A stretch of 64,000 nt of DNA from Eledone cirrhosa (taxonomy: Eukaryota). The stretch spans positions 32,426,001-32,490,000 of the forward strand of contig OZ024746.1 of the NCBI GenBank assembly GCA_964016885.1. Direction: 5' to 3'. The first letter of the stretch is position 1. Each line of letters begins with the position of its first letter. Of this stretch, positions 813 to 63,978 are shown piece after piece. A program made the translations under genes and the position numbers. Under the pieces are notes generated by a model. That model was given only the letters and a program-made list of their open reading frames with translations, had not been told where the DNA came from and searched no databases.

Positions 813-1008
813 ATAGGAACGAGTAGGACCCCAACGGCTGAGCTCAAGCCGTTTCGACGGCTAATTCTGGACTGTGAATTAGCCGTCGAAACGGCTTGAG
901 CTCAGCCGTCGGGGTCCTACTCGTTCCTATTACCCACTCTACTACCCTAAGTATTGAGTACTTGGGTGCGTTATGGTCCACCTGGTTCCTTACCACATTT
1001 CCTTCGTT
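813..1008 (+). mobile_element. Family B element: 55-bp-arm palindrome made of two hammerhead 3' halves, plus tail
   Basis: Arms 813-867 and 876-930 differ by one mismatch. The right arm reads GCCGTC-GAAA-CGGCT..AGCCG-TC^GGGG. (TA)n on both sides. Confidence 0.85.
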
Positions 1009-1612
1009 ATATATATATATATATATATATGTTATGTAATATACATGTGTCATTGTTTACATACCATCGACCACTTACGAAAGATTGCCACGACTTATTT
1101 TGATTAGAAGTAAAATAGATAAATAAAAGTTTGTGGAGAGAAAGAAAGACAAAAGAAGAGAGGGAGAGAAAACTATCGTAAATTCCTCGTGACTCACATT
1201 TTTGTTTTAGATATGTAAATAGTAATATAATTGTAACGGTTTCTAATTTAGATACAAGACCAACAAGATAAAGATGGTAGTGGTGGTGGTGATTTTATCC
1301 ACCTCAGTACATAACTGGTACTTTATTTTATCGGCCCATGAATGATGGAAGGCAAAATTGACATCAGTTGGACTTGATTGAATTCAGAACATAAAAGGGT
1401 TGTAATGAATAATATTAATTTACTAATAAATTAGGGGTCGATAAAATATAGTGCCAGTAATCCACTGGGTAATTGCTGGCCTTGTGCCAAAAGTAGAAAC
1501 AATTATTAATAATTAATAATAATAATGATGATGATGACGATGATGATGATAATGGTGGTGGTGGTGATGATGATGATAATGGTAATAATGGTGATAATGA
1601 TAATGATGATGA

Positions 1613-5282: not shown

Positions 5283-5479
5283 ATAGGAAAAAGTTTAACC
5301 CCGACGGCAGAGCTCAAGCCGTTTCGACGGCTATTTCTGGAGTCTAGAAATAGCCGTCGAAACGGCTTGAGCTCTGCCGTCGGGGTTAAACTTTTTTTAC
5401 TATTACCCACTCTACCACTCTAAGTATTGAGTACTCTGGTGCGTTATGGTCCATCTGGTTCCTTACCACACCTCCTTCG

Positions 5480-5481
<2 letters not shown>
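5283..5481 (+). mobile_element. Family B element, second palindromic copy
   Basis: Arms ~5288-5340 and 5344-5396. Same hammerhead 3' half and tail as 813-1008. TA-rich flanks. Confidence 0.85.
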
Positions 5482-5517
<36 letters not shown>

Positions 5518-6214: not shown

Positions 6215-7486
6215 CAGGGTGTGGACGATATTTGTTCGCAATTTTCAACTGCTAATTTTATGCAAATTTTTTTTTACTTTCGTTGTCACTCTTGTCTTCA
6301 TAAAAACAGTGACTGTATTTCCATTATTTATTTTCAGAATAATTGATTATGAATAATTTTGAACCCTTCTTGGAATCCGCACCGGGACGATAAATAAGGA
6401 AATTTTAGACTTTCTCAGAGTCAGCAGGAGAATGGTGGAAAAGGTCAGAAAGGAATTGGAAGATTCAGGATTCGACTACGAAGCAACCTCAGAGAGGAAA
6501 ACACATCATCGAGGATCTGACGCCTTCAGAATGCCCGAGTTCGTCGCTGAAGTTCAGGATATCATCAACAATGAACCTAGCAAGTCGATGTGTGCCATTG
6601 CAAGGGAGAAAGGCATGGATGAAAAACTCATTAGGCTGGTGGTACATGAAGACATTCGCTACGTTTCATACAAGATGAGGAAAGGACAATTTCTGTCAAA
6701 GGTGATGCAAGAAAAGCGACTGAAGCACGCAAAGAAGCTGATCAACAAGTTGAAACACCCACTGGAGCCAGACATGCTGTGGTTTTTCTCCGACGAGAAA
6801 AACTTCTGCCAAGACCAGAAGATGAACTCCCAGAACAACAGGTGGCTCGCTGTCTCATCTAAAGATGTGCACAAAGTCATGCAGACAAAGTTTCCAGCGA
6901 CAACATTGGTCTTAGGTGTCATCAGCAGTCAAGGTGCCACCTCACTTCTTCCATGAGGGCCTCAAGCTGAACACCGATGGCTACATTCGCATTCTGAGCG
7001 AGGTAGTAAAGCCCTGGATCGACCAGGTAGCTGCAGGTAGGCCGTACATGTGGCAGCAAGACTCAGCGCCCTGCCATACCAGCCGAAAGACCCAAGCCTG
7101 GCTGTCAGAGAACTTCGTCGACCACACTTCACCTGACATCTGGCCTCCCAGCTCGCCTGACTGCAACCCCCTCGACTTCTTTGTGTGGGGCGCCGTGGAA
7201 CGAGACACCAACAGATCTAGCTGCAATACGAAAAACAATCTGAAGGCCAGGATCACAAGTGCCTTTAGGGGCCTAAGTCGGGGGACAGTGACGAAGGCCT
7301 GTAGCCGGTTCCGAGGCCGCCTTGAGGCCGTCATCAAAGCCAATAGCGGGTTTATCGAGTGAGATCGAAAGAACAAGTCATGAAGACAAACTGACCCAAG
7401 TTTGATAAATATATCTTAAAAAATAAAACTACCGTGTTACTTTTTCCTAGACAGTAATCTTGCGAACAAATATCGTCCGCACCCTG
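6215..7486 (+). mobile_element. Tc1/mariner DNA transposon, DD37D (maT) family
   Basis: 27-bp TIRs CAGGGTGTGGACGATATTTGTTCGCAA (6215-6241) and 7460-7486 with one mismatch; TA on both sides. Confidence 0.95.
6432..7362 (+). pseudogene. DD37D transposase, frameshifted near 6935
   Basis: Motifs WFFSDEK, WQQDSAP and SPDCNPLD, with 37 residues between the 2nd and 3rd Asp. Split over ORFs 6432-6956 and 6916-7362. Confidence 0.92.
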
Positions 7487-7647: not shown

Positions 7648-8254
7648 GTCAGGTCACCAGTTGGTGCTACTGGTAACATGTATCCCAGTACAACCTGTCT
7701 CATGGTCGGGTCGTTGGCGACTAAACTGGCAACCCCACCAAGGTTTCTTGGTGTGGAGGGTGACTTTGGACATCCTGCAGGACTAAAAACAAAACCTGTC
7801 AAAGGGCAAAGGAGCTCTTAAGAGTCAATGGCCATCCAAAATCACCGGGAGAGATGACCCCTTAGCCTTTGTCAAGGCAGAATTCTAGGAGAAGGAAAAC
7901 TCTGATATAACACCTGCAACCCTGATGGTATCCAATGATGTTGACTTGTTCTTCTTTTTGGTAAATATCATCTTGGTTAAGAGAGTGGGACTGGCTTTGT
8001 GCAGTGCCTTTGCTCACTATAAAAGCTTCACGGCACAGGCATTGCTTTATATCTGGAGATCTCTCTGCACTTGTCGTCACATGGTACCATGGGCCCAGCA
8101 CTATGTGTCAATAATTGTCACAGGTGTAGTGTTTGTACCAGAGTTTTCAAGTCACTGGCTGGACTAAAAAGTCACACTTGTTCAGGGCATCGGTAGGGGT
8201 TCTCCTACATGGATATAAAGTAGTGGCCGTACTCGAAAACGAGTTGGCAGCCAC
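7648..8254 (+). mobile_element. Non-coding ~600-bp retroposon (unclassified)
   Basis: 7876-8254 is near-identical to 21275-21654, with the same 3' end hairpin GTGGC..ACTCG-AAAA-CGAGT..GCCAC. Confidence 0.7.
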
Positions 8255-8419
8255 CATGTGTATACTACAATATAATGTATATGTATATATGCAAGAGTCT
8301 CTCTCTATATGTGCATATGTGTGTGCATATGCTACAATATATGTATATGTGTATGCCTATGCTACAATATAATGCATATGTATATATATATACAAGTGTC
8401 AATATATATGTATATGCTT

Positions 8420-9516: not shown

Positions 9517-10040
9517 ACGCCTTACCTAAATACAAAGTAAAAACCTACTACAGTCAGTAGGCATCTCTATCAAAACACCCCCCCGTCCCACCACCTCCAC
9601 CCCATCCACACCGCCCCTTTCAATGTACAGTTATGTTGGTCCCACAACATCCAGGCCGAAACAAATGAGATCGTGTAGGTGTCACGACAAAAAACACACA
9701 GTCCACGCTGTAAATGTGGCCGTGTAGGCAACACGGTAAAAACCTCCCAGCCCCACACTGTAAATGTGGTTGGTGTTAGGAAGGGCATCCAGCTGTAGAA
9801 AACCCGCCAGACAGTCCACGCTGTAATGTGGCCGTGTAGGCAACACGGTAAAAACCTCCCAGCCCCACACTGTAAATGTGGTTGGTGTTAGGAAGGGCAT
9901 CCAACTGTAGAAAACCCGCCAGACAGTCCTATGCGAGCAAGACAACCACTCTTGCCTCAAGTGGGAAAACCCCCGTCCAAACCCATGCAAGCGTGGAACA
10001 TGGACGCTAAACCTGATGATGATGATGATGATGATGATAG
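9517..10040 (+). mobile_element. RTE LINE 3' UTR copy with internal duplication and (GAT)n tail
   Basis: Homologous to 10328-10745; an internal block of about 120 bp is tandemly duplicated. Confidence 0.8.
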
Positions 10041-11234: not shown

Positions 11235-11780
11235 CATCATCATTTAATGTCCATTTTTCCACGTTAACAAGGGTTAGATGACTTGTCCAGTTGTGAGACA
11301 AGCTAGATCAAATGACCATGTCTTGCTCATATAGAAATGTCTATAGCTTGGTTTCTATGACTGGCTAATGCCAACCACATTTACAGTGTGGACTGTGTGT
11401 TTTTGTCGTGAATTCTACACAACCATTTTACAGTGTGGACTGTGTGTTTTTGTCGTGAAATCTACACAACCATTTTACAGTGTGGACTGTGTGTTTTTGT
11501 CGTGAAATCTACACAACCATTTTACAGTGTGGACTGAGGGTTTTTTGTTGTGATATCTACACGGCCACTTTATAGTGTGAACTGGGCCTCTTTTTGTCAT
11601 GATATCTACATGACCACATTTACAGTGTGGACTGGGCCCTTTTTGTTGTGATATCTATACGACCACTTTATAGTGTGGATTGGGCCATTTTTGTCATGAT
11701 ATCTACATGACCACATGATAGTTTGGACTGGGCGCTTTTTATTGTGGCACCTACACGACCACTTAACAGTGTGGACTAGA
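11235..11780 (-). mobile_element. RTE 3' UTR-type element with ~8 tandem 47-48-bp units
   Basis: Units like CCACTTTACAGTGTGGACTG.. at 11375-11780, the same unit as the 54255 array. Confidence 0.8.
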
Positions 11781-11882
11781 GGCTGGGGAAGTACATGAGG
11801 ATTGGAGAGGAAGATCTTGGGTGAGGCACATTTCACATATATATATATCATTTAACACTCTCTCTGTCTGTTCATCTCTCTT

Positions 11883-15445: not shown

Positions 15446-16979
15446 GTTCTAACAACTCTGCCAATTTGCTACCTTTCTTCCAGCATTAGCAAATGTAATA
15501 ACACATACAACTGTCAGTATACACCACACATCTAAAACACAAATGAAATAACAGAAATATACCCTTCACACCCTTTTTCCTATGACATAAATAATCTATT
15601 TAGCACACAACTTTCATATAACACCCACTCACAATAAGACCTCCCCAACCCTTATGGAACATCTATATATGGTATGGTATGGTCCCGTAACTTCTGATAG
15701 AGTTGTAGGGGCGCTGTATTGACATATGGCGTTTCCTGGGCATTTTAAAGCCTGGCAGAGCCCATCCCTCTCCAGGCCTGAGTACAGCAGATTTCTTCTA
15801 GAGAGAGAGGAAGAATTGACCCCAGTACTAGACTGGTGTTATTTTTTATCAACCTCAAAAAGACGAAAAGCAAAGTTGACCTCAGCAGGATTTGAAATCA
15901 GAGAGCAGAAAGCCAGAACCCAATGTTCTAATGACTCTGCCAATTCATCACCTACATCCATATATAGCCCTTTAAAAAATATATCTAGGTGCCACACATA
16001 TATCGAACTGCTATCCTCATATCTAGGTACCATACACATAGATGCTATCTACCTATACATCTAGGTACCAGACACAGATCTAAGTACCTTACCCCCCCAT
16101 CTATACACACCCTCCCTCCTTGCCATCAGTTACATAGACCCTAAAAGACACCAAAGACACTGCTCTCATATCCCTGACTATACAGTAAAAATAAATAAAT
16201 AAATCAATAAAAATGCAGTGGTTAATTATATCAAGTGGAGGAACCTCAATGCAGTCATTCGACTTGCTAGAAATAGAGGCCAAATCTGCTTCACATTTCC
16301 CCTCTGATCATATTAAAAATCAATGAATATACTGATTAAATTAATGCTGTATATAATAGGCCAGTAGGGAAGATGGGATGGTCATGACTTGCATGCCAGT
16401 AGAATGATGAAGAAAAAAAAAGTGAGACAGAGAAACAGAACCACAAAATTGTTTTATTTTGCTGGCAACATTCCTGCAGTTTTAGAGGAAATTATAGATA
16501 GTTAAGAAGTAATTATAAACGGAAGGTATGTAGTTGAAATAGTGGTCAATGACTACTCTCCATATTTCCCTACGGAACTACGACAAGCCAACAAGTTGGA
16601 TCAAACTGCTTCTTTTTTTATATTTTTTCAACCACTTAGGAGTGAGTTTACAGATGGAAGCGATCTTGAAATGTATAATTAAATATGAGAAAATTTTATT
16701 GGAAATAAATCAAAGGAAATAATGTTATTTAGTAGAGAAATAGCAGCAATTAGAAAAGATATCTTAGATTTTAGTGCTAATATATTTTTAGCTCACATTT
16801 TCTCAGTGTCTCTGTGAATGTATGTAAATCATCAATAACATCATTTAATGCTTGTTTTCCATGTTGGCATGGGTTGGACAGCTTATGATGGTTAGAGACT
16901 AGATGGGTCAGTGAGACCATATTTTGCAATATGTTCCATATTTGGCATGGTTTCTATGGTCTAATGTTTTTCTTAATGA

Positions 16980-17240
16980 CAACCACTTTACAGAATGTAC
17001 TGGGTTCATTTTACCATGGCATCAGCACTACCACTTTACAAAGTGTACCAACTGCATTTTATCGTGGCACCAACCCTACCACCTTACAGAGTGTATTGAC
17101 TGCATTTTATTGTGGCAGTAACACTACCACCTTGCAGAGTGTACTGGGTGTATTTTATGATGGTACCAGCGCTACCATTTTATAGAGTGTACTGACTGCC
17201 TTTTTTTCGTGGTACCAGTACACACCTTACAGAGTGTACT
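16980..17240 (-). repeat. Degenerate ~48-bp tandem units inside an RTE-tail element
   Basis: 5-6 units of CCACTTTACAGAGTGTACTGGGTG. Similar clusters at 39350-39570 and 43420-43890. Confidence 0.7.
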
Positions 17241-19390: not shown

Positions 19391-19449
<59 letters not shown>

Positions 19450-19555
19450 TCCCCTCTTTCTCCTACTGGCAGGTTTAGCCACCATCTCCCCTACTAATTT
19501 GCAACCACAGAATTACTACTGATTTTTGACAATCACTTTGACCATATATGGAATT

Positions 19556-19649
19556 ACCCCTTGAGAAGATCGGCTATTTAAATACCAGGATTAATTTTCA
19601 TTTAGTCCAGAATTAGCCGTCGAAACGGCTTGAGCTCAGCTGTCGGGGT
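19556..19649 (+). ncRNA. Complete type I hammerhead, U3-A8 core variant (family B)
   Basis: ACCCC-TTGAGAA(19561-19567)-GAtCGGCTA...TAGCCGTC-GAAA(19622-19625)-CGGCT-TGAGCTC-AGCTG-TC^GGGGT. The element spans ~19449-19662 between TA tracts. Confidence 0.85.
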
Positions 19650-19659
19650 CTTACTGGTT

Positions 19660-19697
<38 letters not shown>

Positions 19698-21274: not shown

Positions 21275-21654
21275 AGGCAGAATTCTAGGAGAAGGAAAAC
21301 TCTGATATAACACCTGCAACCCTGATGGTATCCAATGATGTTGACTTGTTCTTCTTTTTGGTAAATATCATCTTGGTTAAGAGAGTGGGACTGGCTTTGT
21401 GCAGTGCCTTTGCTCACTATAAAAGCTTCACGGCACAGGCATTGCTTTGTATCTGGAGATCTCTCTGCACTTGTCGTCACATGGTACCATGGGCCCAGCA
21501 CTATGTGTCAATAGTTGTCACAAGTGTAGTGTTTGTACCAGAGTTTTCAAGTCGGTGGCTGGACTAAAAAGTCACACTTGTTCAGCGCATCGGTAGGGGT
21601 TCTCCTACATGGATATAAAGTAGTGGCCGTACTCGAAAACGAGTTGGCAGCCAC
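21275..21654 (+). mobile_element. 5'-truncated copy of the 7648 retroposon inside (TATG)n
   Basis: Near-identical to 7876-8254, with pure (TATG)n on both sides. Confidence 0.85.
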
Positions 21655-22826
21655 TATGTATGTATGTATGTATGTATGTATGTATGTATGTATGTATGTA
21701 TGTATGTATGTATGTATGTATGTATGTATGTACCAGCAGCGCCATCCCAAACATATGAGAAGTATTGTAACGTGGTCTACGATGTCTATGTTTGTGTGTG
21801 TGTGCGTTACAGAAACATTCTCAGATATATGAGCAGTACTGTAATGTGGTCTAGAATGTTATGTGTAATAGCAGCACTGTCTCAGATATGTAGTCTAGAA
21901 TGTTATGTGTATGTGTAATAGCAGCACTGTCCCAGGTATGTGAGCAGTATTGTAATGTGGTCTAGGACAGCGGTCCCCAACCATTGGGCCACAGACTGGT
22001 ACCAGGCTGTAGACCATTTGAGCATGACATGATCCCCTGATCTAGCATTGCCTACAACAGGACAACTCGTCTAACCAATGCTAGCATGGAAAAATGGACG
22101 TAAAACAGTGATTATGATGATGATGATGATGATGATATATATATAGATAGAGAGATAGAGATAGAGAGATATGTTTCTGCTAATATATTTAGTATATAAA
22201 GCATTAAATATGTTAACTAGAAATAATTATTGGGTGAGGAAAAGACAATTTACATCAATGTCTGTATGCCTGTCTGCCAGTCTACCACACCACAAAATGC
22301 CCCAGTCCCACCCACCTCACATTAACTATGTTAAAACTAAGGAAACACTTAATATTTAAAATGTATAATTACAGGATGTTTAGAATAAATGGTTACACTT
22401 GATATTGTTTACATCCAGTGGTGTTGTTGGTAGTTGTGTTGGTGGTGTTGGTGGTGGTGTTGATGGTGTTGGTGGTGGTGTTGGTGGTGTTGGTCTTGGT
22501 AGTTGTGTTGGTAGTGTTGGTAGTTGTGTTGGTGGTGTTGGTGGTGGTGTTGATGGTGTTGGTGGTGGTGTTGATGGTGTTGGTGGTGGTGTTGGTGGTG
22601 TTGGTGTTGGTAGTTGTGTTGGTGGTGTTGGTGGTGGTGTTGATGGTGTTGGTGGTGGTGTTGGTGGTGTTGTTGTTGGTGGTAGTTGTGATGGTGGTGT
22701 TGGTGGTGGTAGTAGTAGTAACGGTAGTAGTAGCGGTAGTAGTAGCAGCAGTAGTAGTAGTAGTAGTAGTAATAGCAGCAGCAGCAGCAGCAGCAGCAGT
22801 AGTTAGCAGCAGGAACAGCAGCAGCC

Positions 22827-24341: not shown

Positions 24342-27300
24342 TGTGTCATCACAGCTGTAGTTGTCTGTGACATAGACACCATAGTGACAGATTGTGTCAT
24401 CACAGCTGTAGTTGTCTGTGACATAGACACCATAGTGACAGATTGTGTCATCACATCACAGCTGTACTTGTCTGTGACATAGACACCATAGTGACAGATT
24501 GTGTCATCACATCACAGCTGTAGTTGTCTGTGACATAGACACCATAGTGACAGATTGTGACATCTCATCACTGCTGTAGTTGTCTGTCACATAGACACTA
24601 TACTGACAGATTGTGTCATCACATCACAGCTGTAGTTGTCTGTGACATAGACACCATAGTGACAGATTGTGTCATCACATCACAGCTGAAGTTGTCTGTG
24701 ACATAGACACCATAGTGACAGATTGTGTCATCATATCACAGCTGTAGTTGTCTGTGACATAGACACCATAGTGACAGATTGTGTCATCACATCACAGCTG
24801 TACTTGCCTGTGACATAGACACTATAGTGACAGATTGTGTCATCACATCACTCCTGTAGTTGTCTGTGACATAGACACTATACTGACAGATTGTGTCATC
24901 ACATCACAGCTGTAGTTGTCTGTGACATAGACACCATAGTGACAGATTGTGTCATCACATCACAGCTGTAGTTGTCTGTGACATAGACACCATAGTGATA
25001 GATTGTGTCATCACATCACAGCTGTACTTGCCTGTGACATAGACACTATAGTGACAGATTGTGTCATCACATCACTGCTGTAGTTGTCTGTGACATAGAC
25101 ACTATAGTGACAGATTGTGTCATCACATCACAGCTGTAGTTGTCTGTGACATAGACACCATAGTGACAGATTGTGTCATCACATCACTGCTGTAGTTGTC
25201 TGTGACATAGACACCATAATGACAGATTGTGTCATCACAGCTGTAGTTGTCTGTGACATAGACACCATAGTGACAGATTGTGTCATCACATCACAGCTGT
25301 AGTTGTCTGTGACATAGACACCATAATGACAGATTGTGTCATCACAGCTGTAGTTGTCTGTGACATAGACACCATAGTGACAGATTGTGTCATCACATCA
25401 CAGCTGTAGTTGTCTGTGACATAGACACCATAATGACAGATTGTGTCATCACAGCTGTAGTTGTCTGTGACATAGACACCATAGTGACAGATTGTGTCAT
25501 CACATCACAGCTGTAGTTGTCTGTGACATAGACACCATAATGACAGATTGTGTCATCACATCACAACTGTAGTTGTCTGTGACATAGACACCATAGTGAC
25601 AGATTGTGTCATCACATCACTGCTGCAGTTGTCTGTGACATAGACACCATAGTGACAGATTGTGTCATCACATCACAGCTGTACTTGTCTGTGACATAGA
25701 CACCATAGTGACAGATTGTGTCATCACATCACAGCTGTAGTTGTCTGTGACATAGACACCATAGTGACAGATTGTGTCATCACATCACAGCTGTACTTGT
25801 ATGTGACATAGACACCATAGTGACAGATTGTGTCATCACATCACAGCTGTAGTTGTCTGTGACATAGACACCATAGTGACAGATTGTGTCATCACATCAC
25901 AGCTGTAGTTGTCTGTGACATAGACACCATAATGACAGATTGTGTCATCACAGCTGTAGTTGTCTGTGACATAGACACCATAGTGACAGATTGTGTCATC
26001 ACATCACAGCTGTAGTTGTCTGTGACATAGACACCATAATGACAGATTGTGTCATCACATCACTGCTGTAGTTGTCTGTGACATAGACACCATAGTGACA
26101 GATTGTGTCATCACATCACAGCTGTAGTTGTATGTGACATAGACACCATAGTGACAGATTGTGTCATCACATCACAGCTGTAGTTGTCTGTGACATAGAC
26201 ACCATAGTGACAGATTGTGTCATCTCATCACTGCTGTAGTTGTCTGTGACATAGACACCATAGTGACAGATTGTGTCATCTCATCACTGCTGTAGTTGTC
26301 TGTGACATAGACACCATAGTGACAGATTGTGTCATCACATCACTGCTGTAGTTGTCTGTGACATAGACACCATAGTGACAGATTGTGTCATCACATCACA
26401 GCTGTACTTGTATGTGACATAGACACCATAGTGACAGATTGTGTCATCACATCACAGCTGTAGTTGTCTGTGACATAAACACCATAGTGACAGATTGTGT
26501 CATCACATCACAGCTGTAGTTGTCTGTGACATAGACACCATAATGACAGATTGTGTCATCACATCACAACTGTAGTTGTCTGTGACATAGACACCATAGT
26601 GACAGATTGTGTCATCACATCACAGCTGTAGTTGTCTGTGACATAGACACCATAGTGACAGACTGTGTCATCACATCACAGCTGTAGTTGTCTGTGACAT
26701 AGACACCATAGTGACAGATTGTGTCATCACATCACAGCTGTAGTTGTCTGTGACATAGACACCATAGTGACAGATTGTGTCATCTCATCACTGCTGTAGT
26801 TGTCTGTGACATAGACACCATAGTGACAGATTGTGTCATCACATCACAGCTGTACTTGCCTGTGACATAGACACTATAGTGACAGATTGTGTCATCACAT
26901 CACTCCTGTAGTTGTCTGTGACATAGACACTATACTGACAGATTGTGTCATCACATCACAGCTGTAGTTGTCTGTGACATAGACACCATAGTGACAGATT
27001 GTGTCATCACATCACAGCTGTAGTTGTCTGTGACATAGACACCATAGTGATAGATTGTGTCATCACATCACAGCTGTACTTGCCTGTGACATAGACACTA
27101 TAGTGACAGATTGTGTCATCACATCACTGCTGTAGTTGTCTGTGACATAGACACTATAGTGACAGATTGTGTCATCACATCACAGCTGTAGTTGTCTGTG
27201 ACATAGACACCATAGTGACAGATTGTGTCATCACATCACTGCTGTAGTTGTCTGTGACATAGACACCATAATGACAGATTGTGTCATCACAGCTGTAGTT

Positions 27301-30300
27301 GTCTGTGACATAGACACCATAGTGACAGATTGTGTCATCACATCACAGCTGTAGTTGTCTGTGACATAGACACCATAATGACAGATTGTGTCATCACAGC
27401 TGTAGTTGTCTGTGACATAGACACCATAGTGACAGATTGTGTCATCACATCACAGCTGTAGTTGTCTGTGACATAGACACCATAATGACAGATTGTGTCA
27501 TCACAGCTGTAGTTGTCTGTGACATAGACACCATAGTGACAGATTGTGTCATCACATCACAGCTGTAGTTGTCTGTGACATAGACACCATAATGACAGAT
27601 TGTGTCATCACATCACAACTGTAGTTGTCTGTGACATAGACACCATAGTGACAGATTGTGTCATCACATCACTGCTGCAGTTGTCTGTGACATAGACACC
27701 ATAGTGACAGATTGTGTCATCACATCACAGCTGTACTTGTCTGTGACATAGACACCATAGTGACAGATTGTGTCATCACATCACAGCTGTAGTTGTCTGT
27801 GACATAGACACCATAGTGACAGATTGTGTCATCACATCACAGCTGTACTTGTATGTGACATAGACACCATAGTGACAGATTGTGTCATCACATCACAGCT
27901 GTAGTTGTCTGTGACATAGACACCATAGTGACAGATTGTGTCATCACATCACAGCTGTAGTTGTCTGTGACATAGACACCATAATGACAGATTGTGTCAT
28001 CACAGCTGTAGTTGTCTGTGACATAGACACCATAGTGACAGATTGTGTCATCACATCACAGCTGTAGTTGTCTGTGACATAGACACCATAATGACAGATT
28101 GTGTCATCACATCACTGCTGTAGTTGTCTGTGACATAGACACCATAGTGACAGATTGTGTCATCACATCACAGCTGTAGTTGTATGTGACATAGACACCA
28201 TAGTGACAGATTGTGTCATCACATCACAGCTGTAGTTGTCTGTGACATAGACACCATAATGACAGATTGTGTCATCACATCACAACTGTAGTTGTCTGTG
28301 ACATAGACACCATAGTGACAGATTGTGTCATCACATCACTGCTGCAGTTGTCTGTGACATAGACACCATAGTGACAGATTGTGTCATCACATCACAGCTG
28401 TAGTTGTCTGTGACATAGACACCATAGTGACAGATTGTGTCATCACATCACTGCTGTAGTTGTCTGTGACATAGACACCATAATGACAGATTGTGTCATC
28501 ACAGCTGTAGTTGTCTGTGACATAGACACCATAGTGACAGATTGTGTCATCACATCACAGCTGTAGTTGTCTGTGACATAGACACCATAATGACAGATTG
28601 TGTCATCACAGCTGTAGTTGTCTGTGACATAGACACCATAGTGACAGATTGTGTCATCACATCACAGCTGTAGTTGTCTGTGACATAGACACCATAATGA
28701 CAGATTGTGTCATCACAGCTGTAGTTGTCTGTGACATAGACACCATAGTGACAGATTGTGTCATCACATCACAGCTGTAGTTGTCTGTGACATAGACACC
28801 ATAATGACAGATTGTGTCATCACATCACAACTGTAGTTGTCTGTGACATAGACACCATAGTGACAGATTGTGTCATCACATCACTGCTGCAGTTGTCTGT
28901 GACATAGACACCATAGTGACAGATTGTGTCATCACATCACAGCTGTACTTGTCTGTGACATAGACACCATAGTGACAGATTGTGTCATCACATCACAGCT
29001 GTAGTTGTCTGTGACATAGACACCATAGTGACAGATTGTGTCATCACATCACAGCTGTACTTGTATGTGACATAGACACCATAGTGACAGATTGTGTCAT
29101 CACATCACAGCTGTAGTTGTCTGTGACATAGACACCATAGTGACAGATTGTGTCATCACATCACAGCTGTAGTTGTCTGTGACATAGACACCATAATGAC
29201 AGATTGTGTCATCACAGCTGTAGTTGTCTGTGACATAGACACCATAGTGACAGATTGTGTCATCACATCACAGCTGTAGTTGTCTGTGACATAGACACCA
29301 TAATGACAGATTGTGTCATCACAGCTGTAGTTGTCTGTGACATAGACACCATAGTGACAGATTGTGTCATCACATCACAGCTGTAGTTGTCTGTGACATA
29401 GACACCATAGTGACAGATTGTGTCATCACATCACAGCTGTAGTTGTCTGTGACATAGACACCATAATGACAGATTGTGTCATCACATCACAACTGTAGTT
29501 GTCTGTGACATAGACACCATAGTGACAGATTGTGTCATCACATCACTGCTGCAGTTGTCTGTGACATAGACACCATAGTGACAGATTGTGTCATCACATC
29601 ACAGCTGTACTTGTCTGTGACATAGACACCATAGTGACAGATTGTGTCATCACATCACAGCTGTAGTTGTCTGTGACATAGACACCATAGTGACAGATTG
29701 TGTCATCACATCACAGCTGTACTTGTATGTGACATAGACACCATAGTGACAGATTGTGTCATCACATCACAGCTGTAGTTGTCTGTGACATAGACACCAT
29801 AGTGACAGATTGTGTCATCACATCACAGCTGTAGTTGTCTGTGACATAGACACCATAATGACAGATTGTGTCATCACATCACAACTGTACTTGTATGTGA
29901 CATAGACACCATAGTGACAGATTGTGTCATCACATCACAGCTGTAGTTGTCTGTGACATAGACACCATAGTGACAGATTGTGTCATCACAGCTGTAGTTG
30001 TCTGTGATATAGACACCATAGTGACAGATTGTGTCATCACATCACAGCTGTAGTTGTCTGTGACATAGACACCATAGTGACAGATTGTGTCATCACATCA
30101 CAGCTGTACTTGTATGTGACATAGACACCATAGTGACAGATTGTGTCATCACATCACAGCTGTAGTTGTCTGTGACATAAACACCATAGTGACAGATTGT
30201 GTCATCACATCACAGCTGTAGTTGTCTGTGACATAGACACCATAATGACAGATTGTGTCATCACATCACAACTGTAGTTGTCTGTGACATAGACACCATA

Positions 30301-32297
30301 GTGACAGATTGTGTCATCACATCCCAGCTGTAGTTGTCTGTGACATAGACACCATAGTGACAGACTGTGTCATCACATCACAGCTGTAGTTGTCTGTGAC
30401 ATAGACACCATAGTGACAGATTGTGTCATCACATCACAGCTGTAGTTGTCTGTGACATAGACACCATAGTGACAGATTGTGTCATCTCATCACTGCTGTA
30501 GTTGTCTGTGACATAGACACCATAGTGACAGATTGTGTCATCTCATCACTGCTGTAGTTGTCTGTGACATAGACACCATAGTGACAGATTGTGTCATCAC
30601 ATCACTGCTGTAGTTGTCTGTGACATAGACACCATAGTGACAGATTGTGTCATCACATCACAGCTGTACTTGTATGTGACATAGACACCATAGTGACAGA
30701 TTGTGTCATCACATCACAGCTGTAGTTGTCTGTGACATAAACACCATAGTGACAGATTGTGTCATCACATCACAGCTGTAGTTGTCTGTGACATAGACAC
30801 CATAATGACAGATTGTGTCATCACATCACAACTGTAGTTGTCTGTGACATAGACACCATAGTGACAGATTGTGTCATCACATCACAGCTGTAGTTGTCTG
30901 TGACATAGACACCATAGTGACAGACTGTGTCATCACATCACAGCTGTAGTTGTCTGTGACATAGACACCATAGTGACAGATTGTGTCATCACATCACAGC
31001 TGTAGTTGTCTGTGACATAGACACCATAGTGACAGATTGTGTCATCTCATCACTGCTGTAGTTGTCTGTGACATAGACACCATAGTGACAGATTGTGTCA
31101 TCTCATCACTGCTGTAGTTGTCTGTGACATAGACACCATAGTGACAGATTGTGTCATCACATCACAGCTGTAGTTGTCTGTGACATAGACACCATAGTGA
31201 CAGATTGTGTCATCACATCACAGCTGTAGATGTCTGTGACATAGACACCATAGTGACAGATTGTGTCATCACATCACAGCTGTAGTTGTCTGTGACATAG
31301 ACACTATAGTGACAGAATGTGTCATCACATCACAGCTGTAGTTGTCTGTGACATAGACACCATAGTGACAGATTGTGTCATCACATCACAGCTGTAGTTG
31401 TCTGTGACATAGACACCATAGTGACAGATTGTGTCATCACATCACAGCTGTACTTGACTGTGACATAGACACCATAGTGACAGATTGTGTCATCACATCA
31501 CAGCTGTACTTGACTGTGACATAGACACCATAGTGACAGATTGTGTCATCACATCACAGCTGTAGTTGTCTGTGACATAGACACCATAATGACAGATTGT
31601 GTCATCTCATCACAGCTGTAGTTGTCTGTGACATAGACACCATAGTGACAGATTGTGTCATCACATCACTGCTGTAGTTGTCTGTGACATAGACACCATA
31701 GTGACAGATTGTGTCATCACATCACAGCTGTAGTTGTCTGTGACATAGACACCATAGTGACAGATTGTGTCATCACATCACAGCTGTAGTTGTCTGTGAC
31801 ATAGACACCATAGTGACAGATTGTGTCATCACATCACTGCTGTAGTTGTCTGTGACATAGACACCATAGTGACAGATTGTGTCATCACATCACAGCTGTA
31901 GTTGTCTGTGACATAGACACCATAGTGACAGATTGTGTCATCACATCACTACTGTACTTGTCTGTGACATAGACACTATAGTGACAGATTGTGTCATCAC
32001 ATCACAGCTGTAGTTGTCTGTGACATAGACACCATAGTGACAGATTGTGTCATCACATCACAGCTGTAGTTGTCTGTGACATAGACACCATAGTGACATA
32101 TTGTGTCATCACATCACAGCTGTAGTTGTCTGTGACATAGATACCATAGTGACAGCATGTGTCATCACATCACAGCTGTAGTTGTCTGTGACATAGACAC
32201 CATAGTGACAGATTGTGTCATCACATCACAGCTGTAGTTGTCTGGGCTATAGACACCATAGTGACAGCATGTGTCATCACATCACAGCTGTAGTTGT
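24342..32297. repeat. 56-bp satellite (~140 units, 51-bp variant) with higher-order duplications
   Basis: Unit GATTGTGTCATCACATCACAGCTGTAGTTGTCTGTGACATAGACACCATAGTGACA; no spacers. Confidence 0.97.
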
Positions 32298-32860
32298 TTG
32301 GTCCTGTTATCTGTTGATGATTTCAAGCTTCTGAAGCAATTACTCTATGGTGAACAAGTTTTTGGTAAGGGCCCTTAGCACAAAAGCTGACTGATACTTT
32401 TTGGACATTAACACTACAAGCAGAAAATATATCATATTGAATAGTAGTGAATGATAGTCTATAATTTGGGACAACTGCCTGAAATTTGAGAAAATTGAAT
32501 TGCTTACCAGATGATAAAACATAATGTTTAAATATTGCAAGTTATTGATTTTCCATGCAATAATAGGACCAGATGTGATCTCACCTGTACTACCTATGGT
32601 CAAGAGTGACCAAAAATGGTCTTACCTGTACTGCCCATGGTAAAGAATGACCAGAAGTGGTCTCATCAACACTGTCTATGGTCAAGACAGTTTTTTATTA
32701 GTCAGAAGATATAGCCATAGCCCTTACTGTTTTGTCAGGGAGGGTCAGTGCCCATGAGCTTTTTAGGGCCTCTATAACTGGTGTAATAGAGGAATGAAAG
32801 TATTCTCAAACTGGAGACCAGTTATGAATGTTTGCAACAGAATGAACTCTATTAAAGACA

Positions 32861-47190: not shown

Positions 47191-47666
47191 TATATATATG
47201 AATGTATATATAATGTATTTTGCAATATACTTTATGCTTAATTAAAAGCATTTTGAAGACCGTATGCTATTGTTTTAGAGTAGTGACAAACTCACTTACT
47301 TTAATCTCAGAAAACAAGGGGAGATAAGCCGACAAGGCCTTGTTTCGCATTTTTTGATGCTTATCAAGGCTAACTACTCCCTCCTGTCTACTGAGATCAC
47401 TGATGTTATATTCTTATAGAATTCTAGTAAATAATCAGGAACTGATTATACAGAGCGGTTGCCGGTCAGGCAGAAATTAAAAATTAGAATTGGAGCTCTG
47501 AAATAGCAATATTTGGTTGCTGAGATTAAAGTAAGTGAGTTTGTCACTACTCTAAAACAATAGCATACGGTCTTTAAAATGCTTTTAATTAAGCATAAAG
47601 TGTATTGCAAAATACATTATATATACATTCATATATATATTGCTATTTCAGAGCTCCAATTCTAAT
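47191..47666 (-). mobile_element. Hammerhead-bearing fold-back element (family E)
   Basis: ~120-bp arms at 47191-47310 and 47520-47640 with about two mismatches; second inversion 47483-47508/47641-47666; TA flanks. Confidence 0.85.
47327..47371 (-). ncRNA. Type I hammerhead, U3-A8 core variant (family E)
   Basis: Minus strand AGCC-TTGATAA-GCA(TCAAAAAA)TGC-GAAA-CAAGGCCTTG-TC^GGCT; palindromic stem III. Confidence 0.85.
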
Positions 47667-48860: not shown

Positions 48861-51800
48861 AGTTTCTTTTATTTGCCACTAGGGCATCAAAAGTGGGACA
48901 AGTACAAAGGGGGGAGTTTACACAAAAAGGCGTCCTCAATAAGGAGGAGGCAATAACAAAATATAAAAATAAAATAAGATATAACAAAAAATAAAATTTT
49001 TAACAAAATCCTCAATAGAGAGGAGGCGCCTTGGGGGGTCGCACACACCCCCGAAAAAAGTGTGCAACCCTTTTCCTCAGGAGCACAGAGAGGGGGTGCT
49101 CCCTCGTTCCTTCCTCTTTTCCACCTACAGGCTTATGTAAAGAGAAGGCCCATTCACACGGGCCATTCTCGCCACTTTCACCCACCTTTCATAAAAACGA
49201 CTGGGGTGCAGCACCTCTCTCTCCATCCTGATCCTTCTTCCGAAATGATATCGGAAGAAACGGACCAGTTGTTGGCCAGAGAGAAAGGTGCCTGACCTCA
49301 GTCCTTTCAGACGCGTCCACCATACAACCTCTTTCGCCATGGCTATTACGCACAGAAACACCGCCTCTGCTTCATCTTTGAAGGGGGGAGGCGGCTTGAT
49401 CATTACAATAGACTCGGTGGTCAACCGGATCGGTCCCACCCTTGACAGCAGTTGTTCGACATAGCCCCACAGATCGGCTACGCCCGAGCAGTGTACCAAT
49501 GCGTGTGCAACGGTTTCCTCGTCGCACACGCATCTGGGACAGATCTTTTTGGCGGGGTCCCTACCCGGGCGCCCGTGTCTGTAGAGCCTTTCTCGAACGG
49601 GTAAAGCCCCTCGGTAGCACTGCCAGGCCAGGGACTTCTGGAAGTTGTCCATAGGTCCCGGGCTGAATGTCCTACCGAACAGGCTGGCCAGTTCGTCCTC
49701 CTCCATGTCTAGGGCTTCTCCAAGGGTGTCGTCGCACCTGCTGCGTACCAGCCCTCTATAGAATGTTGCGGTGGAGTCTCCACTGATAACCGGATCCGCC
49801 TGCCAGAGGGCGGTGAGCCCCTGGGCACACCCAGTGTGCCAGGCGCCCAGTTTTCTCGGTCTTTGCTTGACCCAGGATTGCAGCTCGGTGAGTGAGACGA
49901 GTCTGGGAAAGGTTCGTCTCACAAACGAGGCCCACACCGGTTGTCCGGTGAGGAATACGTAGAGGTGCCGTAGCCTTAATGCGTGTTTACGCATCATTAG
50001 CCACGGCATCCCCAGCCCTCCTTTCGAAGGGTGTTGACAGCAGATGGATCTCCTCACCATAGGAGCCCGCCCCTTCCAAAGGAATTGGAAGAGCGCGCGC
50101 TCCATCTTGGTGAGGGTTTCCCTTGGGCAGGGCACTACGGTCAGGCGGTAGTAGATGACGGACGCTATATAAGTGTTCGCCACCTCCGCCCGACCTTTCA
50201 GGGATAGTTTGCAACTGGCCCACTTCTGGGTCAGTGCAAACACCCTGTTCGTAACCTCCGCCCAGTTTTTCTCCACCTGGAGGTCCGGTCCGAACCAGAC
50301 CCCGAGCAACTTCACCGGGCCCTCCGTCCAGCGTCCGACGACGCCATCGGAGGGCATCGGTCTGCCCCTCCACGTGCCGAGTTGCAAACCGATCGACTTG
50401 TCCCGGTTCAGCTTAGCCCCTGTGAACTTTTCGTACTCCTCCAGTAAGGTGCCGACCGCCTCGATTTCGGAGGCCGTCGACACCATTACTGTCACATCAT
50501 CGGCGTAGGCTGACACCGCTTTCCGCAATCCCGGTTCCAAAGGGATGCCCTGCAACAACTCCAACTTCCGCAGTAGTGGCTCGAGAGTCAACACATACAG
50601 AAGGGAGGAGAGAGGGCACCCTTGTCGGATGGACCGCGCGATTTTGAACGGCTCCGAGAGGTAGCCGTTCACCTTGACCCTAGAGCAGATGCGGCTGCTG
50701 TGCATAGCAGTGATCCAGCCCCTGAAAACGGGTCCGAAGCCTGCCGCCGCTAGCACCGCATCCAGGTAACCATGGTCGACCCTATCGAACGCCTTAGATT
50801 GATCCAAGTTGATCAGAGCCCCACCAAAGCCGGGTTCGTTCCCAACCCTCTCTATGATGTATTGCATGAGGTGGAGGTTGTCATGGATGGACCTGGACGG
50901 GATAGCGCATGTCTGCGCATCTCCCACCAGGTTGCCCACGACAAGCGCCAACCTCTTTGCTAGCACCTTGGCCAAAATCTGTAACTCTGTATTTAGCAGA
51001 GTTATGGGCCTGAAGTTACTTATTTCGTCCCCCTTGTTCTCGTCCTTCCTCACTAGCATGACTACGCCCTTGGTCACAGTACAGGGAATTCTCCCGTTCT
51101 GTTGCCAGTTGCAGTAGACCGCCTCGAGGAGATCGGGGAACAAGTCCGGCATAGCTAGATATAATTCGTAAGGAAGACCATCGAGACCCGGGGATTTGCG
51201 TTTGCCGCATTGGCCCAGCACGTCCTCTATCTCAGCGGCCGAAACCGGCTCCTCGCAAGACTTCGCCTCCCTGTCCGAGAGGCGCGGCAGGCCGTCGAGG
51301 TATGGACCGAAGTCCACGTTTCCAACCGGCTCCCCGCCCCTCCCGAACAGTCGGGCAAAGTGCCTTTGAAAGGCCTCACACATCTGCTTAGGCTCAAGAA
51401 TCGCCCGTCCATCCAGGTCTCGCAAAGACCGGATGGTGGATTTAGTTCCACTGTTGGCCTCTGTCACGCGGGCCCAGCTAACAGCTTTGGCCCCCTCGTT
51501 CCCTAGAGCACGTATTTTACTTCGGACAACGCAGCCTTCGTGCTTCGCGTCGAAAAACTGGCTCAAAGCCGTTCTCGACGCTAGCACTCTGGCCACGTCG
51601 CCGCTTCTAATTGCCTCTTCTACTCTATCTATTAGCTCCCTTTCCTTCCTATTCCTATCCGCAGCTAGAACCTTACTAAATTCAATCGAGACTACTCTAA
51701 TCTCTCTCTTTAGAGATACCCACCACCTGCTGTTGACGATCGCTCCAGTCAACCGTTCCTTAACTAACGTACTAATCCGATTCCTGTAGGCTCTACTTGC

Positions 51801-52360
51801 CGGCAAGGACAAGTTGAGCTTCCAGTAACCGGGGCCCTGTCTATGCGTTCTATCAAGGTTGACCATGCAGGTCACCAACTTGTGGTCTGAATAGCCAACC
51901 ATGAGCATTTCTGGACAACTTAAAAAGTCCCTGTCCTTATTTCTAACTAAAAATCTATCTAGGTACGATCTAGATGATCCGCTGCGATTTGACCAAGACC
52001 AGGTTGGCACCGTCGGAAAATCTAGTCGAAATCTATCGGCCAGGTCAAATCGGCCGAGTAACCCCTTGAGGCTGTTGCACCCCTCTCTATCGGGACATGC
52101 CCCTGCATAGTCCCAACGTGCATCCAGGATACCATTCCAATCCCCCACTAAAAGCAGGGAACGGGACGTCCCTAGAAAAGACTCCAGACGCTGGAAAAAG
52201 TCGGGCCGCTCTGTCCCAAAAGGGGCATATGCGGCTATCAGCCTAAGGGCTCTACCTTCACCACTGCCAAGGTCCAGCACCACCAGTCGACCCCCTGGGT
52301 CCAAGTGAACTATCTGTGTTGCAAGGCCCATATGTTTTTGCAGCAGAACGACAACCCCAC
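48861..52360 (-). mobile_element. Young 5'-truncated Tx1/L1-clade LINE
   Basis: 16-bp TSD GGTGGCTATATAGATA at 48845-48860 and 52361-52376; AATAAA near the 3' end. Confidence 0.95.
49125..52360 (-). CDS. Tx1/L1 ORF2 (partial APE endonuclease, RT, CCHC zinc finger); open frame, N-terminus truncated
   Basis: GDWN, SYLDRF, SDH, GYWKLN, SPGLDGL, DQSKAFD, QGCPLS, YADD, CPRC..E...H....C. The first ~35 aa of the listed ORF come from the flank. Confidence 0.93.
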
Positions 52361-52942
52361 GGTGGCTATATAGATAGATAGATAATATGTCATATATATG
52401 CTGAAATGCATGAAAATATGAGCGTAGCATATTTGAATGTATATGTTTAATTGAGAGTGTAGACATGTGTGTATATATATGTTGCTACATTCCTAGTTGA
52501 CTTGACTAAATCTATTATTCATATGATTTGCTGCTTATTCAAGCATGAAGGCTTTTGTGTCAAAAATAATCTATTCAGTATTACAGCCAATATGGTCTAA
52601 AATGGCTTTGTTTCATGGTTAATGGAATTATTCCAACCATTCTACCCTCATCATACCTCACTCTTTTATTGTATTCTCTTATAGTTTTAACAAATGCACA
52701 GCAGAAGGTGGCAAAAGAACAAAATAAATTTATTAATGAATTTTTTTTTCATTGAGATTTCCAAACGAAAATAATTAATGATTGGACATCCACAAATAAC
52801 CATTCTCTTAATTACTCCAGTTATATATTAGTGAGCAATTTTGCACTGAAGAATTTTCTTTTCATATGTGTTGTGTGTGTGTGTGTGCACACACACACAT
52901 ATATATACATACACACATATATATATACACACACACACATAA

Positions 52943-54170: not shown

Positions 54171-54254
54171 CATTAGAGGCAAGTTGACCATGTCTTGCTC
54201 ATATAGAACTGCTTCTGGCTAGGTTTCTATAGCCAGATGCCCTTCCTAACGGCA

Positions 54255-56965: not shown

Positions 56966-57484
56966 AGATATTTTGTTGTAAGGGTGGTGTGGACAGGAGT
57001 GTAAGGGTGGGGGTATAGTGGTTAAGAGGTGCCTACTAGATGTATGTTTGAGTCCATGCGCATAGAAAGGCGTGTCTTCTGTATTACTGCATAACACCAA
57101 AGATCTCAATATGTAAGATAACACAAAGTAAGAACCATCATGCTTATTGCCTTTACTAACACAATGCAATCAATCCAGTGTGTATATAGCTGTGCATATA
57201 TATATAAATATTGATTTTTAATTTAGACACAAGGCCAGCAAATTTTGAAGCAATACAAAGTTGATTAAATTAACCCTAGTACTTAAACGATACTTTATTT
57301 TATCAACCCCAGAAGAATGAAAGGCAAAGTTGGCCTTGGTGGGATTTGAACTCAGAATGTAAAGAGCAAGAACAAATACTGCAATGGCTTTTAATTTGAA
57401 GGTCAACCAATTTTGTCAATCCTCATACATGTATAAATATTGATAACTCAAAGCACAACCCAAATGTGCCTAGTCCCTTATTAC

Positions 57485-63878: not shown

Positions 63879-63978
63879 AACGAAGGAAGTGTGGTAAGGA
63901 ACCAGATGGACCATAACGCATCAGAGTACTCAATACTTAGGGTAGTAGAGTGGGTAATAGGAAAATATTTAACCCCGA
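63879..63978 (-). mobile_element. Family B tail-only copy
   Basis: Reverse complement of 5380-5481; ends in (TA)n. Confidence 0.85.

What the first reader, a model, noticed from the sequence alone, without database searches (positions are those of the whole stretch)
19556..19649. Complete family B ribozyme with a compensatory U3-A8 core
The core is UUGAGAA instead of CUGAUGA, so the tertiary C3-G8 pair is replaced by U3-A8, a known functional covariation. All three stems are well formed (5 bp, ~8 bp, 6 bp). A search requiring CUGANGA would miss it. It explains the 813 and 5283 palindromes.
Basis: partly seen in the sequence, partly recalled or inferred. Interest (0 to 1): 0.75.

Follow-up and report, generated by a model that had tools for sequence, protein, structure and literature searches.

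The report
Penelope hammerhead with genomic cut-site footprints
This is one of about 5,500 copies of a hammerhead (self-cutting RNA) motif with an already described U3-A8 core, at the end of a Penelope-like jumping gene; hundreds of tiny insertions begin exactly at its predicted cut site, which likely records cutting in the living animal, apparently even in an ancestral branch where that core pair was mismatched.

Summary
Observation confirmed: 19556-19649 (+) is a complete type I hammerhead motif with a U3-A8 core and a GUC site at C19644. It is a 5'-truncated orphan copy, set in (TA)n, of the terminal repeat of a Penelope-like retrotransposon bearing the Hydra-clade protein motifs. U3-A8 in Penelope hammerheads is published (PMC4209133), so the variant is not new. 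The genome holds 5,500 complete matches: 4,100 U3-A8, 1,317 non-U3 with A8 (nearly all C3.A8, a mismatch), 7 C3-G8. A tree places the mismatch grade between older and younger U3 groups, so this U3-A8 pair likely arose by reversion, not by covariation from C3-G8. In short palindromic insertions, 26 of 44 unambiguous arm ends fall exactly after the cut site, likely a record of cleavage in vivo; a similar peak occurs in copies tentatively assigned to the mismatch era. Most insertions read through the site and stop 26-44 nt upstream, giving palindromes like 813 and 5283. No cleavage assay or RNA data. The scan noted such footprints before on other DNA of this genome (e1-9529586).

The parts
19449..19663 (+). 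5'-truncated orphan copy of the terminal repeat (pLTR) of a Penelope-like element, ending at the 'short' 3' end about 18 nt after the cut site
   Evidence: homology to L001/L002 and to both repeats of the full element L031; 5' end 195 nt before C17
19379..19448 (.). (TA)n microsatellite, left flank (insertion target)
   Evidence: sequence
19662..19695 (.). (TA)n microsatellite, right flank; overlaps the element end, so the exact boundary is ambiguous
   Evidence: sequence
19550..19560 (+). stem I 5' strand (19556-19560) with predicted outer extension (19550-19555)
   Evidence: fold; 95% and 90% of cells paired in 25 copies
19561..19567 (+). core positions 3-9 with U3 (19561), G7 (19565) and A8 (19566)
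   Evidence: sequence; in 100 copies sampled with the core left free: U4 100, G5 97, A6 100, A9 100, position 7 G79/U13/A8, position 3 U78/C21/G1 (counted by eye)
19568..19621 (+). long stem II: G10.1-C11.1, A-U, bulged U, 6 bp, internal loop, apical hairpin (19588-19608)
   Evidence: G10.1-C11.1 kept in 25 of 25 (these positions were fixed by the pattern that found the copies)
19598..19603 (+). initiator-like hexamer (A at 19600, 44 nt before C17) at the upstream edge of the main zone of 5' ends; candidate transcription start, untested
   Evidence: no arm of 30 short palindromes extends beyond -44; the initiator consensus is recalled, not from a call
19615..19630 (+). competing 6-bp hairpin that would hide G12-A14 in its loop (predicted off state)
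   Evidence: pair probability about 0.24 for 94-165 nt fragments, 0.93 when the whole 216-nt fragment is folded
19622..19644 (+). G12-A13-A14, stem III (19625-19630 with 19638-19643) with a near-palindromic loop, U16.1 (19643) and C17 (19644)
   Evidence: self-dimer -26.3 against hairpin -4.9 kcal/mol
19645..19661 (+). stem I 3' strand (19645-19649; G1.1 at 19645 is where footprint insertions begin), bulge and outer extension
815..1013 (.). head-to-head insertion of the same family: short arm 815-873 (-), long arm with tail 876-1013 (+); 3' half of the ribozyme only; middle-aged subfamily
5285..5486 (.). second head-to-head insertion: short arm 5285-5341 (-), long arm 5341-5486 (+); 3' half only; older subfamily

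Best explanation
The stretch is a type I hammerhead motif with a U3-A8 core inside the terminal repeat of a Penelope-like retrotransposon with Hydra-clade motifs, here a truncated orphan copy in a TA repeat, and the family's ribozyme likely cuts a minority of element RNAs after C17 in vivo. Shown: anatomy, context, copy numbers, positions of 5' ends. Inferred: reverse transcription starts at two fixed sites about 18 and 100 nt downstream of the cut site, primed from the two ends of a break in (TA)n; it normally reads through an uncut or re-ligated ribozyme; on a cut RNA it runs off at G1.1, adds untemplated bases, and the two cDNAs are joined into a tiny palindrome. Most insertions instead end 26-44 nt upstream of C17, probably at an RNA 5' end (a transcription start inside stem II) and otherwise at a structure block, giving palindromes like 813 and 5283. 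The lineage likely went U3-A8 to C3.A8 and back to U3-A8, then gained an A-U pair at the base of stem II. This particular copy has no ORF and is probably inert.
For: Context: L031 is repeat-ORF-repeat (961-bp direct repeats, a ribozyme in each); the ORF has RT and C-terminal nuclease motifs matching the Hydra description; 1,068 homologous proteins, named ones from corals and a sea cucumber. Core held while neutral sites change: position 7 varies by subfamily, positions 4, 5, 6 and 9 do not; the path between oldest and youngest copies is 0.69-1.06 changes per site in the repeat. Footprints: 311 palindromes with both arms reaching G1.1 and at most 8 nt between; with the junction left free, 26 of 44 arms at junctions with an insert start exactly at +1, against 3 at 0, 3 at +2 and 3 at +3, and 8 of the 40 loci are blunt at the site (first 40 of 259 loci). 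39 of those 40 pair one long and one short arm, as expected for two start sites on one RNA (two start sites shown for another Penelope element, PMC11167929). Precedent: R2 junctions track the ribozyme site and carry untemplated bases (PMC3774820, passages). History: the younger U3 clade is nested in a C3.A8 grade (30 rows, support 100/98); C3 monophyly rejected (p-AU 8.8e-5); median end branches fall 0.056, 0.039, 0.027, 0.016, 0.005 along the ladder. Main end zone: 45 of 55 copies anchored on the 3' half end at -28 to -56; 16 of 30 tail-anchored copies end at -34 to -49 and none between -50 and -327.
Against: No cleavage assay and no RNA reads. The +1 peak is nearly as strong in the middle-aged group (24 of 48 arms; 17 of 30 in copies with the C3-type tail), about 4 against 6 both-arm events per 1,000 read-through arms (estimated). 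A broken 3-8 pair should lower cleavage sharply, so either C3.A8 still cuts, or the tail assignment is wrong (calibrated on only 14 copies, and the young subfamily shares that tail), or the peak is not catalytic. Blunt junctions can also arise from a 2-nt microhomology. Covariation is not above shuffled controls (score 0.076; 278 of 500 as high). The active fold is predicted at about 0.46 for 94-165 nt fragments but 0.007 for the whole 216-nt copy, and below 0.08 for all older subfamilies. U3-A8 was not rescued in a saturation screen of another hammerhead (PMC9901934). Ribozyme mutants did not impair insertion by another Penelope element in vitro, and no RNA-seq ends were seen at its site (PMC11167929). 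The tree is rooted by branch lengths, not by an outgroup, and used 67 of 99 copies.
Confidence: 0.7

Rival explanations
1. The motif is a structured RNA signal for the element's protein but is catalytically weak or dead; the +1 ends come from reverse transcriptase stalling where stem III begins, not from cleavage.
For: The peak persists in copies tentatively from the C3.A8 era; about 1,300 copies spread with the mismatch; the great majority of insertions read through the site (56,292 3' halves; 2 of 30 tail-anchored copies end at +1 or +2); cleavage was dispensable in vitro for another Penelope element (PMC11167929).
Against: A stall at stem III should leave C17 copied (end at 0), yet ends at 0 are rare (3 against 26); no sharp peak at other helix edges; untemplated additions suit run-off from an RNA end; catalytic positions stayed fixed over 0.7-1.1 changes per site while position 7 changed several times; the lineage restored the 3-8 pair.
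Confidence: 0.2
2. The ribozyme works mainly as a dimer or in trans through its near-palindromic stem III, and cleavage followed by ligation makes circular RNAs that template the tandem repeats; read-through of the site reflects re-ligated circles.
For: Stem III self-dimer -26.3 against hairpin -4.9 kcal/mol; a 7.5-copy, 299-bp head-to-tail array with a ribozyme in each unit (L069); the model proposed in PMC4209133.
Against: Stem III is 6 bp, long enough for a monomer; only one such array was seen among 28 short-stem matches (7 of the 28 matches belong to it); circles do not explain the fixed edge at -44; no RNA evidence. This rival is not exclusive of the best explanation.
Confidence: 0.25
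3. The stretch is a chance look-alike or a decayed repeat with no ribozyme ancestry.
For: No Rfam match; folding z-score only -1.91.
Against: 5,500 matches against 1 control; position in the terminal repeat as in other Penelope elements; all other core positions are canonical; junction peak at the predicted site.
Confidence: 0.02

Closest known systems
Hammerheads in pLTRs of Penelope-like elements, including the U3-A8 variant of Schistosoma Cercyon elements (Cervera and de la Pena 2014, PMC4209133; parts 1-2 of 4 read)
   Same: Type I topology, place in the flanking repeat, long stem II, short stem I, conserved G10.1-C11.1, palindromic stem III, mostly orphan copies, some inverted pairs; U3-A8 reported there with about 1,300 hits.
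   Different: Here stem III is a 6-bp helix rather than minimal, stem II carries a 53-nt branched arm, a C3.A8 mismatch lineage is abundant, and genomic ends map to the cut site; the parts read report no such junction analysis.
Hydra clade of C-terminal-endonuclease Penelope-like elements (Craig et al. 2021, PMC8557442; section 11, passages, and supplement part 2 of 59 read)
   Same: RWK-like, DKT, CxCX5C, CxxC and CxH motifs, no CCHH seen, short ORF, (TA)n targets, tail at one end, inverted truncated copies.
   Different: Every Hydra-clade hammerhead listed in its File S2 has C3 and G8, found with a canonical descriptor; the listed Hydra-1_oBim motif is a different sequence. Clade placement here is by motifs, not by a tree with reference proteins.
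Natural U3-A8 hammerheads (Perreault et al. 2011, PMC3088659; passages read)
   Same: The same covariation at 3 and 8, stated there to be active in vitro.
   Different: Not the same family; no mismatch intermediate discussed in the passages read.
PAc Poseidon element of Anolis (Frangieh et al. 2024, PMC11167929; passages read)
   Same: Two reverse-transcription start sites that define a tail; uncut RNA as the main template.
   Different: Canonical C3-G8 core; tail 30-40 nt against about 80 nt here; no RNA-seq ends found at its cut site, whereas here genomic ends pile up at it.
R2 retrotransposon HDV-like ribozyme (PMC3774820; passages read)
   Same: Genomic 5' junctions reflect the self-cleavage site and carry untemplated bases.
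   Different: Different ribozyme class and element; in R2 the cut defines full-length copies, here only a few percent of ends.
Animal non-LTR retrozymes (bioRxiv 10.64898/2026.07.22.740005, passages read; PMC7229834, search listing only)
   Same: The 299-bp tandem array L069 looks like one derived from this repeat.
   Different: The window copy is single, not tandem.

Membership tests
Hammerhead ribozyme, type I | Three helices round the core, with stem I open | tested here: met
   87% of cells paired against 27-57% for slid controls
Hammerhead ribozyme, type I | U4, G5, A6, A9, G12, A13, A14, A15.1-U16.1 and H17 | tested here: met
   sequence; conserved in samples with these positions left free
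Hammerhead ribozyme, type I | Watson-Crick pair between positions 3 and 8 | tested here: met
   U3-A8 in this copy and in 4,100 of 5,500; not met in about 1,400 relatives. G8 itself is absent.
Hammerhead ribozyme, type I | Covariation supporting the helices | tested here: inconclusive
   3 pairs change on both sides, all in stem II, but no excess over shuffles
Hammerhead ribozyme, type I | Match to an Rfam hammerhead model | tested here: not met
   no hammerhead family listed up to E 10. The long stem II and the variant core may account for it (inference).
Hammerhead ribozyme, type I | Tertiary contact between stem I and loop II | not tested
   stem I has a predicted asymmetric bulge; partner not identified
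Hammerhead ribozyme, type I | Self-cleavage after position 17 | not testable with these tools
   indirect support only: junction peak at +1
Penelope-like element | Direct pseudo-LTRs round one RT-endonuclease ORF, with inverted truncated copies and a tail at one end | tested here: met
   L031, L032 direct; L033-L037 inverted; long and short ends. Both ORFs examined are interrupted.
Hydra clade | RWK and DKT motifs | tested here: met
   RWR and DKT read in the L031 and L032 translations against the description
Hydra clade | CxCX5C linker, CxxC and CxH motifs, no CCHH | tested here: met
   read by eye
Hydra clade | Insertion into (TA)n | tested here: met
Hydra clade | Placement in the clade by RT phylogeny | not tested
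   reference proteins were not aligned; no Pfam match; homologues in corals and Apostichopus
Non-LTR retrozyme | Head-to-tail tandem units, each with a hammerhead | tested here: not met
   the window copy is single; met only by L069

The most novel reading that the evidence does not exclude
The genome records a ribozyme lineage that broke the 3-8 core pair (C3.A8), kept cutting in vivo as shown by insertions that start at the cut site, multiplied to more than 1,300 complete copies, and then restored the pair and strengthened stem II; and tens of thousands of short palindromes mark a transcription start inside the ribozyme's own stem II, so that most transcripts begin with half a ribozyme and cannot cut their 5' end.
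Probability: 0.3. Interest if true: 0.68.

Novelty: new member of a known kind. Interest (0 to 1): 0.47.

Why it matters
The role of hammerheads in Penelope-like elements is still open: cleavage in vitro is weak, and in the one reconstituted element it was dispensable. Insertions that begin at the cut site give a DNA-only readout of cleavage in the germ line that can be counted by subfamily. Because this family passed through U3.G8, U3-A8 and C3.A8 states, it offers natural variants for asking how much the 3-8 pair matters in a cell. The U3-A8 core itself is known; the practical point is that searches demanding CUGANGA miss this whole family of at least 5,500 copies.

Tried and rejected
Rfam scans: no hammerhead match. 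Pfam: no family for the three element ORF pieces. Sequencing runs: no RNA holder listed; contigs of three runs laid on the copy show presence only, with a large rise in summed depth at about 19594-19617 in one run, which is not a copy count. First two trees were not used: one search lacked old copies; one search was distorted by rearranged young copies with unrelated flanks, so its clade test is void. One search had an index error (redone); one search used a misregistered structure (redone). The first genome pattern had too short a gap and found only deletion variants. The idea that U3-A8 came by a double change from C3-G8 inside this family was rejected: no C3-G8 subfamily. The idea that the main end zone is an exponential fall-off was rejected: tail-anchored copies show 16 of 30 ends in a 16-nt zone and none over the next 278 nt. 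A sharp single-base end or a cap-derived G in that zone was looked for and not found; ends spread from -25 to -44. Przybilski and Hammann 2007 and Nelson and Uhlenbeck 2008, which hold rates for 3-8 variants, were not held, so no rate for C3.A8 is cited. Searches for a printed junction analysis at Penelope hammerhead sites listed none by title or abstract; most listed papers were not read, Lunse et al. 2017 and Arkhipova et al. 2017 (recalled) were not read, and bioRxiv supplements are closed, so absence from print is not established.

Full report
Observation. Stem I is 19556-19560 with 19645-19649; the core has U3 at 19561 and A8 at 19566; G10.1 (19568) pairs with C11.1 (19621); G12-A14 are 19622-19624; stem III is 19625-19630 with 19638-19643; C17 is 19644. 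The minimum-energy fold is the hammerhead junction (z -1.91). Rfam lists no hammerhead for it. The copy spans 19449-19663 and has (TA)n on both sides.

Context. The window lies in a 3.0-Gb animal genome. Close copies elsewhere flank an ORF: L031 has 961-bp direct repeats, each with the ribozyme, round a reading frame for a reverse transcriptase and a C-terminal nuclease, interrupted by a frameshift; L032 is similar; L033-L037 are inverted arrangements. The protein shows RWR, DKT, CxCX5C, CxxC and CxH and no CCHH, the marks given for the Hydra clade in PMC8557442 section 11. Pfam gave no match; 1,068 homologues were found among 7,996 scored candidates, the named ones from corals and a sea cucumber. 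No tree with reference proteins was made. Copies end at one of two places, about 18 or about 100 nt after C17, like the two start sites shown for another Penelope element (PMC11167929).

Is U3-A8 compensatory? An exact pattern for the 5' core and the GAAA finds 5,500 copies, control 1. Of these 83 lack A8 (7 are C3-G8 by eye, and a small old group is U3.G8) and 1,317 have A8 without U3 (98 of the first 100 are C3). So 4,100 (74.5%) are U3-A8 and about 24% are C3.A8. With the core left free, 5,121 matches were found; in the first 100, positions 4, 6 and 9 were invariant, G5 was kept in 97, position 7 was G, U or A by subfamily, and position 3 was U in 78 and C in 21 (by eye). A tree of the repeat with positions 3 and 8 masked (67 of 99 copies kept, 32 dropped for under 150 nt of homologous flank, among them the window's own copy, whose near-identical siblings L001, L002 and L005 are in; 11 rearranged or tandem loci left out beforehand) is a ladder: old U3.G8 and U3-A8, then a C3.A8 grade, then a younger U3-A8 clade (30 rows, 100/98), with the window's subfamily at the tip. 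C3 monophyly is rejected (22 against 42 rows, p-AU 8.8e-5) and median end branches shrink along the ladder from 0.056 to 0.005. The root is inferred from those lengths only. The pair in this copy is therefore most simply a C-to-U reversion. The youngest subfamily also gained an A-U pair at the base of stem II, and its predicted share of the active fold is 0.47-0.53 against under 0.08 in 23 older copies (single old copies carry decay, so this comparison is biased). A competing hairpin at 19615-19630 would hide the GAAA and dominates when the whole 216-nt copy is folded. Covariation over 25 copies is not above shuffled controls.

Does it cut? No assay or RNA was available (no RNA holder listed). 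The genome offers indirect evidence. There are 311 palindromic insertions whose two arms both reach G1.1 with at most 8 nt between. With the junction left free between +7 and about -20, the young subfamily has 259 such loci. In the first 40, arms at junctions with an insert start at +1 in 26 of 44 cases, against 3 at 0, 3 at +2 and 3 at +3; two of those rows are blunt joints misread because of a point change; 8 loci in all are blunt at the site, which a 2-nt microhomology could also give; 39 of 40 pair a long with a short arm. Against an even spread over nine positions the peak has p 2e-14 (the nine is my choice). R2 elements give the precedent that junctions follow a ribozyme site and carry untemplated bases (PMC3774820). 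A stall before stem III should end at 0, not +1. Against my reading: the middle-aged group (244 loci; first 50 examined) shows the same peak, 24 of 48 arms, and 17 of 30 among copies with the tail type of the C3.A8 grade. Scaled by 32,813 read-through arms split 60:40 in the first 100, both-arm events are about 6 per 1,000 in the young group and about 4 per 1,000 in the middle group. The tail assignment rests on 14 complete copies (6 C3 with that tail, 4 C3 other, 4 U3 with variant tails). Either C3.A8 still cuts, or the assignment is off, or the peak is not catalytic. Published data are mixed: U3-A8 is stated active (PMC3088659), but only the C3G/G8C swap was rescued in a saturation screen (PMC9901934), and cleavage was not needed for insertion in vitro (PMC11167929).

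The palindromes. The 3' half alone occurs 56,292 times, ten times the complete motif. Of 55 arms from 40 stretches taken in order along contig C1, 45 end at -28 to -56 and 8 hold the whole core (ends 3' of -28 cannot appear by design). Of 30 copies anchored on the tail, 16 end at -34 to -49, none from -50 to -327, and 2 at +1 or +2. In 30 short palindromes no arm passes -44, the A of an initiator-like hexamer at 19598-19603 (consensus recalled). Penelope has an internal promoter (PMC2377424, passages). I infer a transcription start there, with run-off from the 5' copy of the start sites; a structure block at the apical hairpin is the alternative. The 813 and 5283 palindromes belong to this class: each has one short and one long arm, joined at -34 to -41, with subfamily marks older than the 19556 copy. 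They are siblings of the ribozyme copy, not products of it.

Comparison and novelty. U3-A8 hammerheads in Penelope repeats were described in 2014 with about 1,300 hits in Schistosoma (PMC4209133). All Hydra-clade motifs in File S2 of PMC8557442 have C3 and G8. This is thus a new member of a known kind. The cut-site footprints were noted before by this scan on other DNA of the same genome (e1-9529586, seen after my own counts). The mismatch phase with reversion and the end zone at -26 to -44 did not appear in the notes shown to me or in the papers read.

Verdict. Real motif, known variant, probably an inert orphan copy of an abundant retrotransposon. Family-level cleavage in vivo is likely (about 0.7). 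Interest 0.47, carried by the footprints and the lineage history rather than by the U3-A8 core.

Noticed in passing
window 47327-47371 (-): A second, unrelated small type I hammerhead-like motif, also with U3-A8 (position 7 U), a short stem II and a fully palindromic stem III.
   Followed up: no
   Followed up: no
window 63874-63977 (-): Tail-bearing fragment of an older subfamily of the same element that stops within about 1-2 nt of the cut site.
   Followed up: partly
L069:2289-4527: 7.5 head-to-tail copies, 99% alike, of a 299-bp unit holding the ribozyme with a shortened stem II plus the tail: a retrozyme-like array derived from the youngest subfamily.
   Followed up: partly
L110-L114, L142: An old subfamily with a U3.G8 wobble core, at the far end of the ladder.
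   Followed up: partly
window 19592: This copy and its closest siblings have T where most contigs of three public runs have A, in the apical hairpin of stem II.
   Followed up: no
window 49125-52484 (-): Open frame of 1,119 aa with endonuclease, reverse transcriptase and zinc-binding Pfam matches: a LINE ORF2, apparently uninterrupted.
   Followed up: no
window 6916-7362 (+): Weak DDE_3 transposase match (E 0.005), likely a decayed Tc1/mariner piece.
   Followed up: no
window 24347-32300 and 54253-56979: Large tandem arrays with periods of about 56 and 48 bp; the 48-bp unit also matches 9669-9884, 11313-11781 and 16979-17236.
   Followed up: no
window 7875-8259 and 21275-21659: A 385-bp dispersed repeat, 98% identical.
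   Followed up: no
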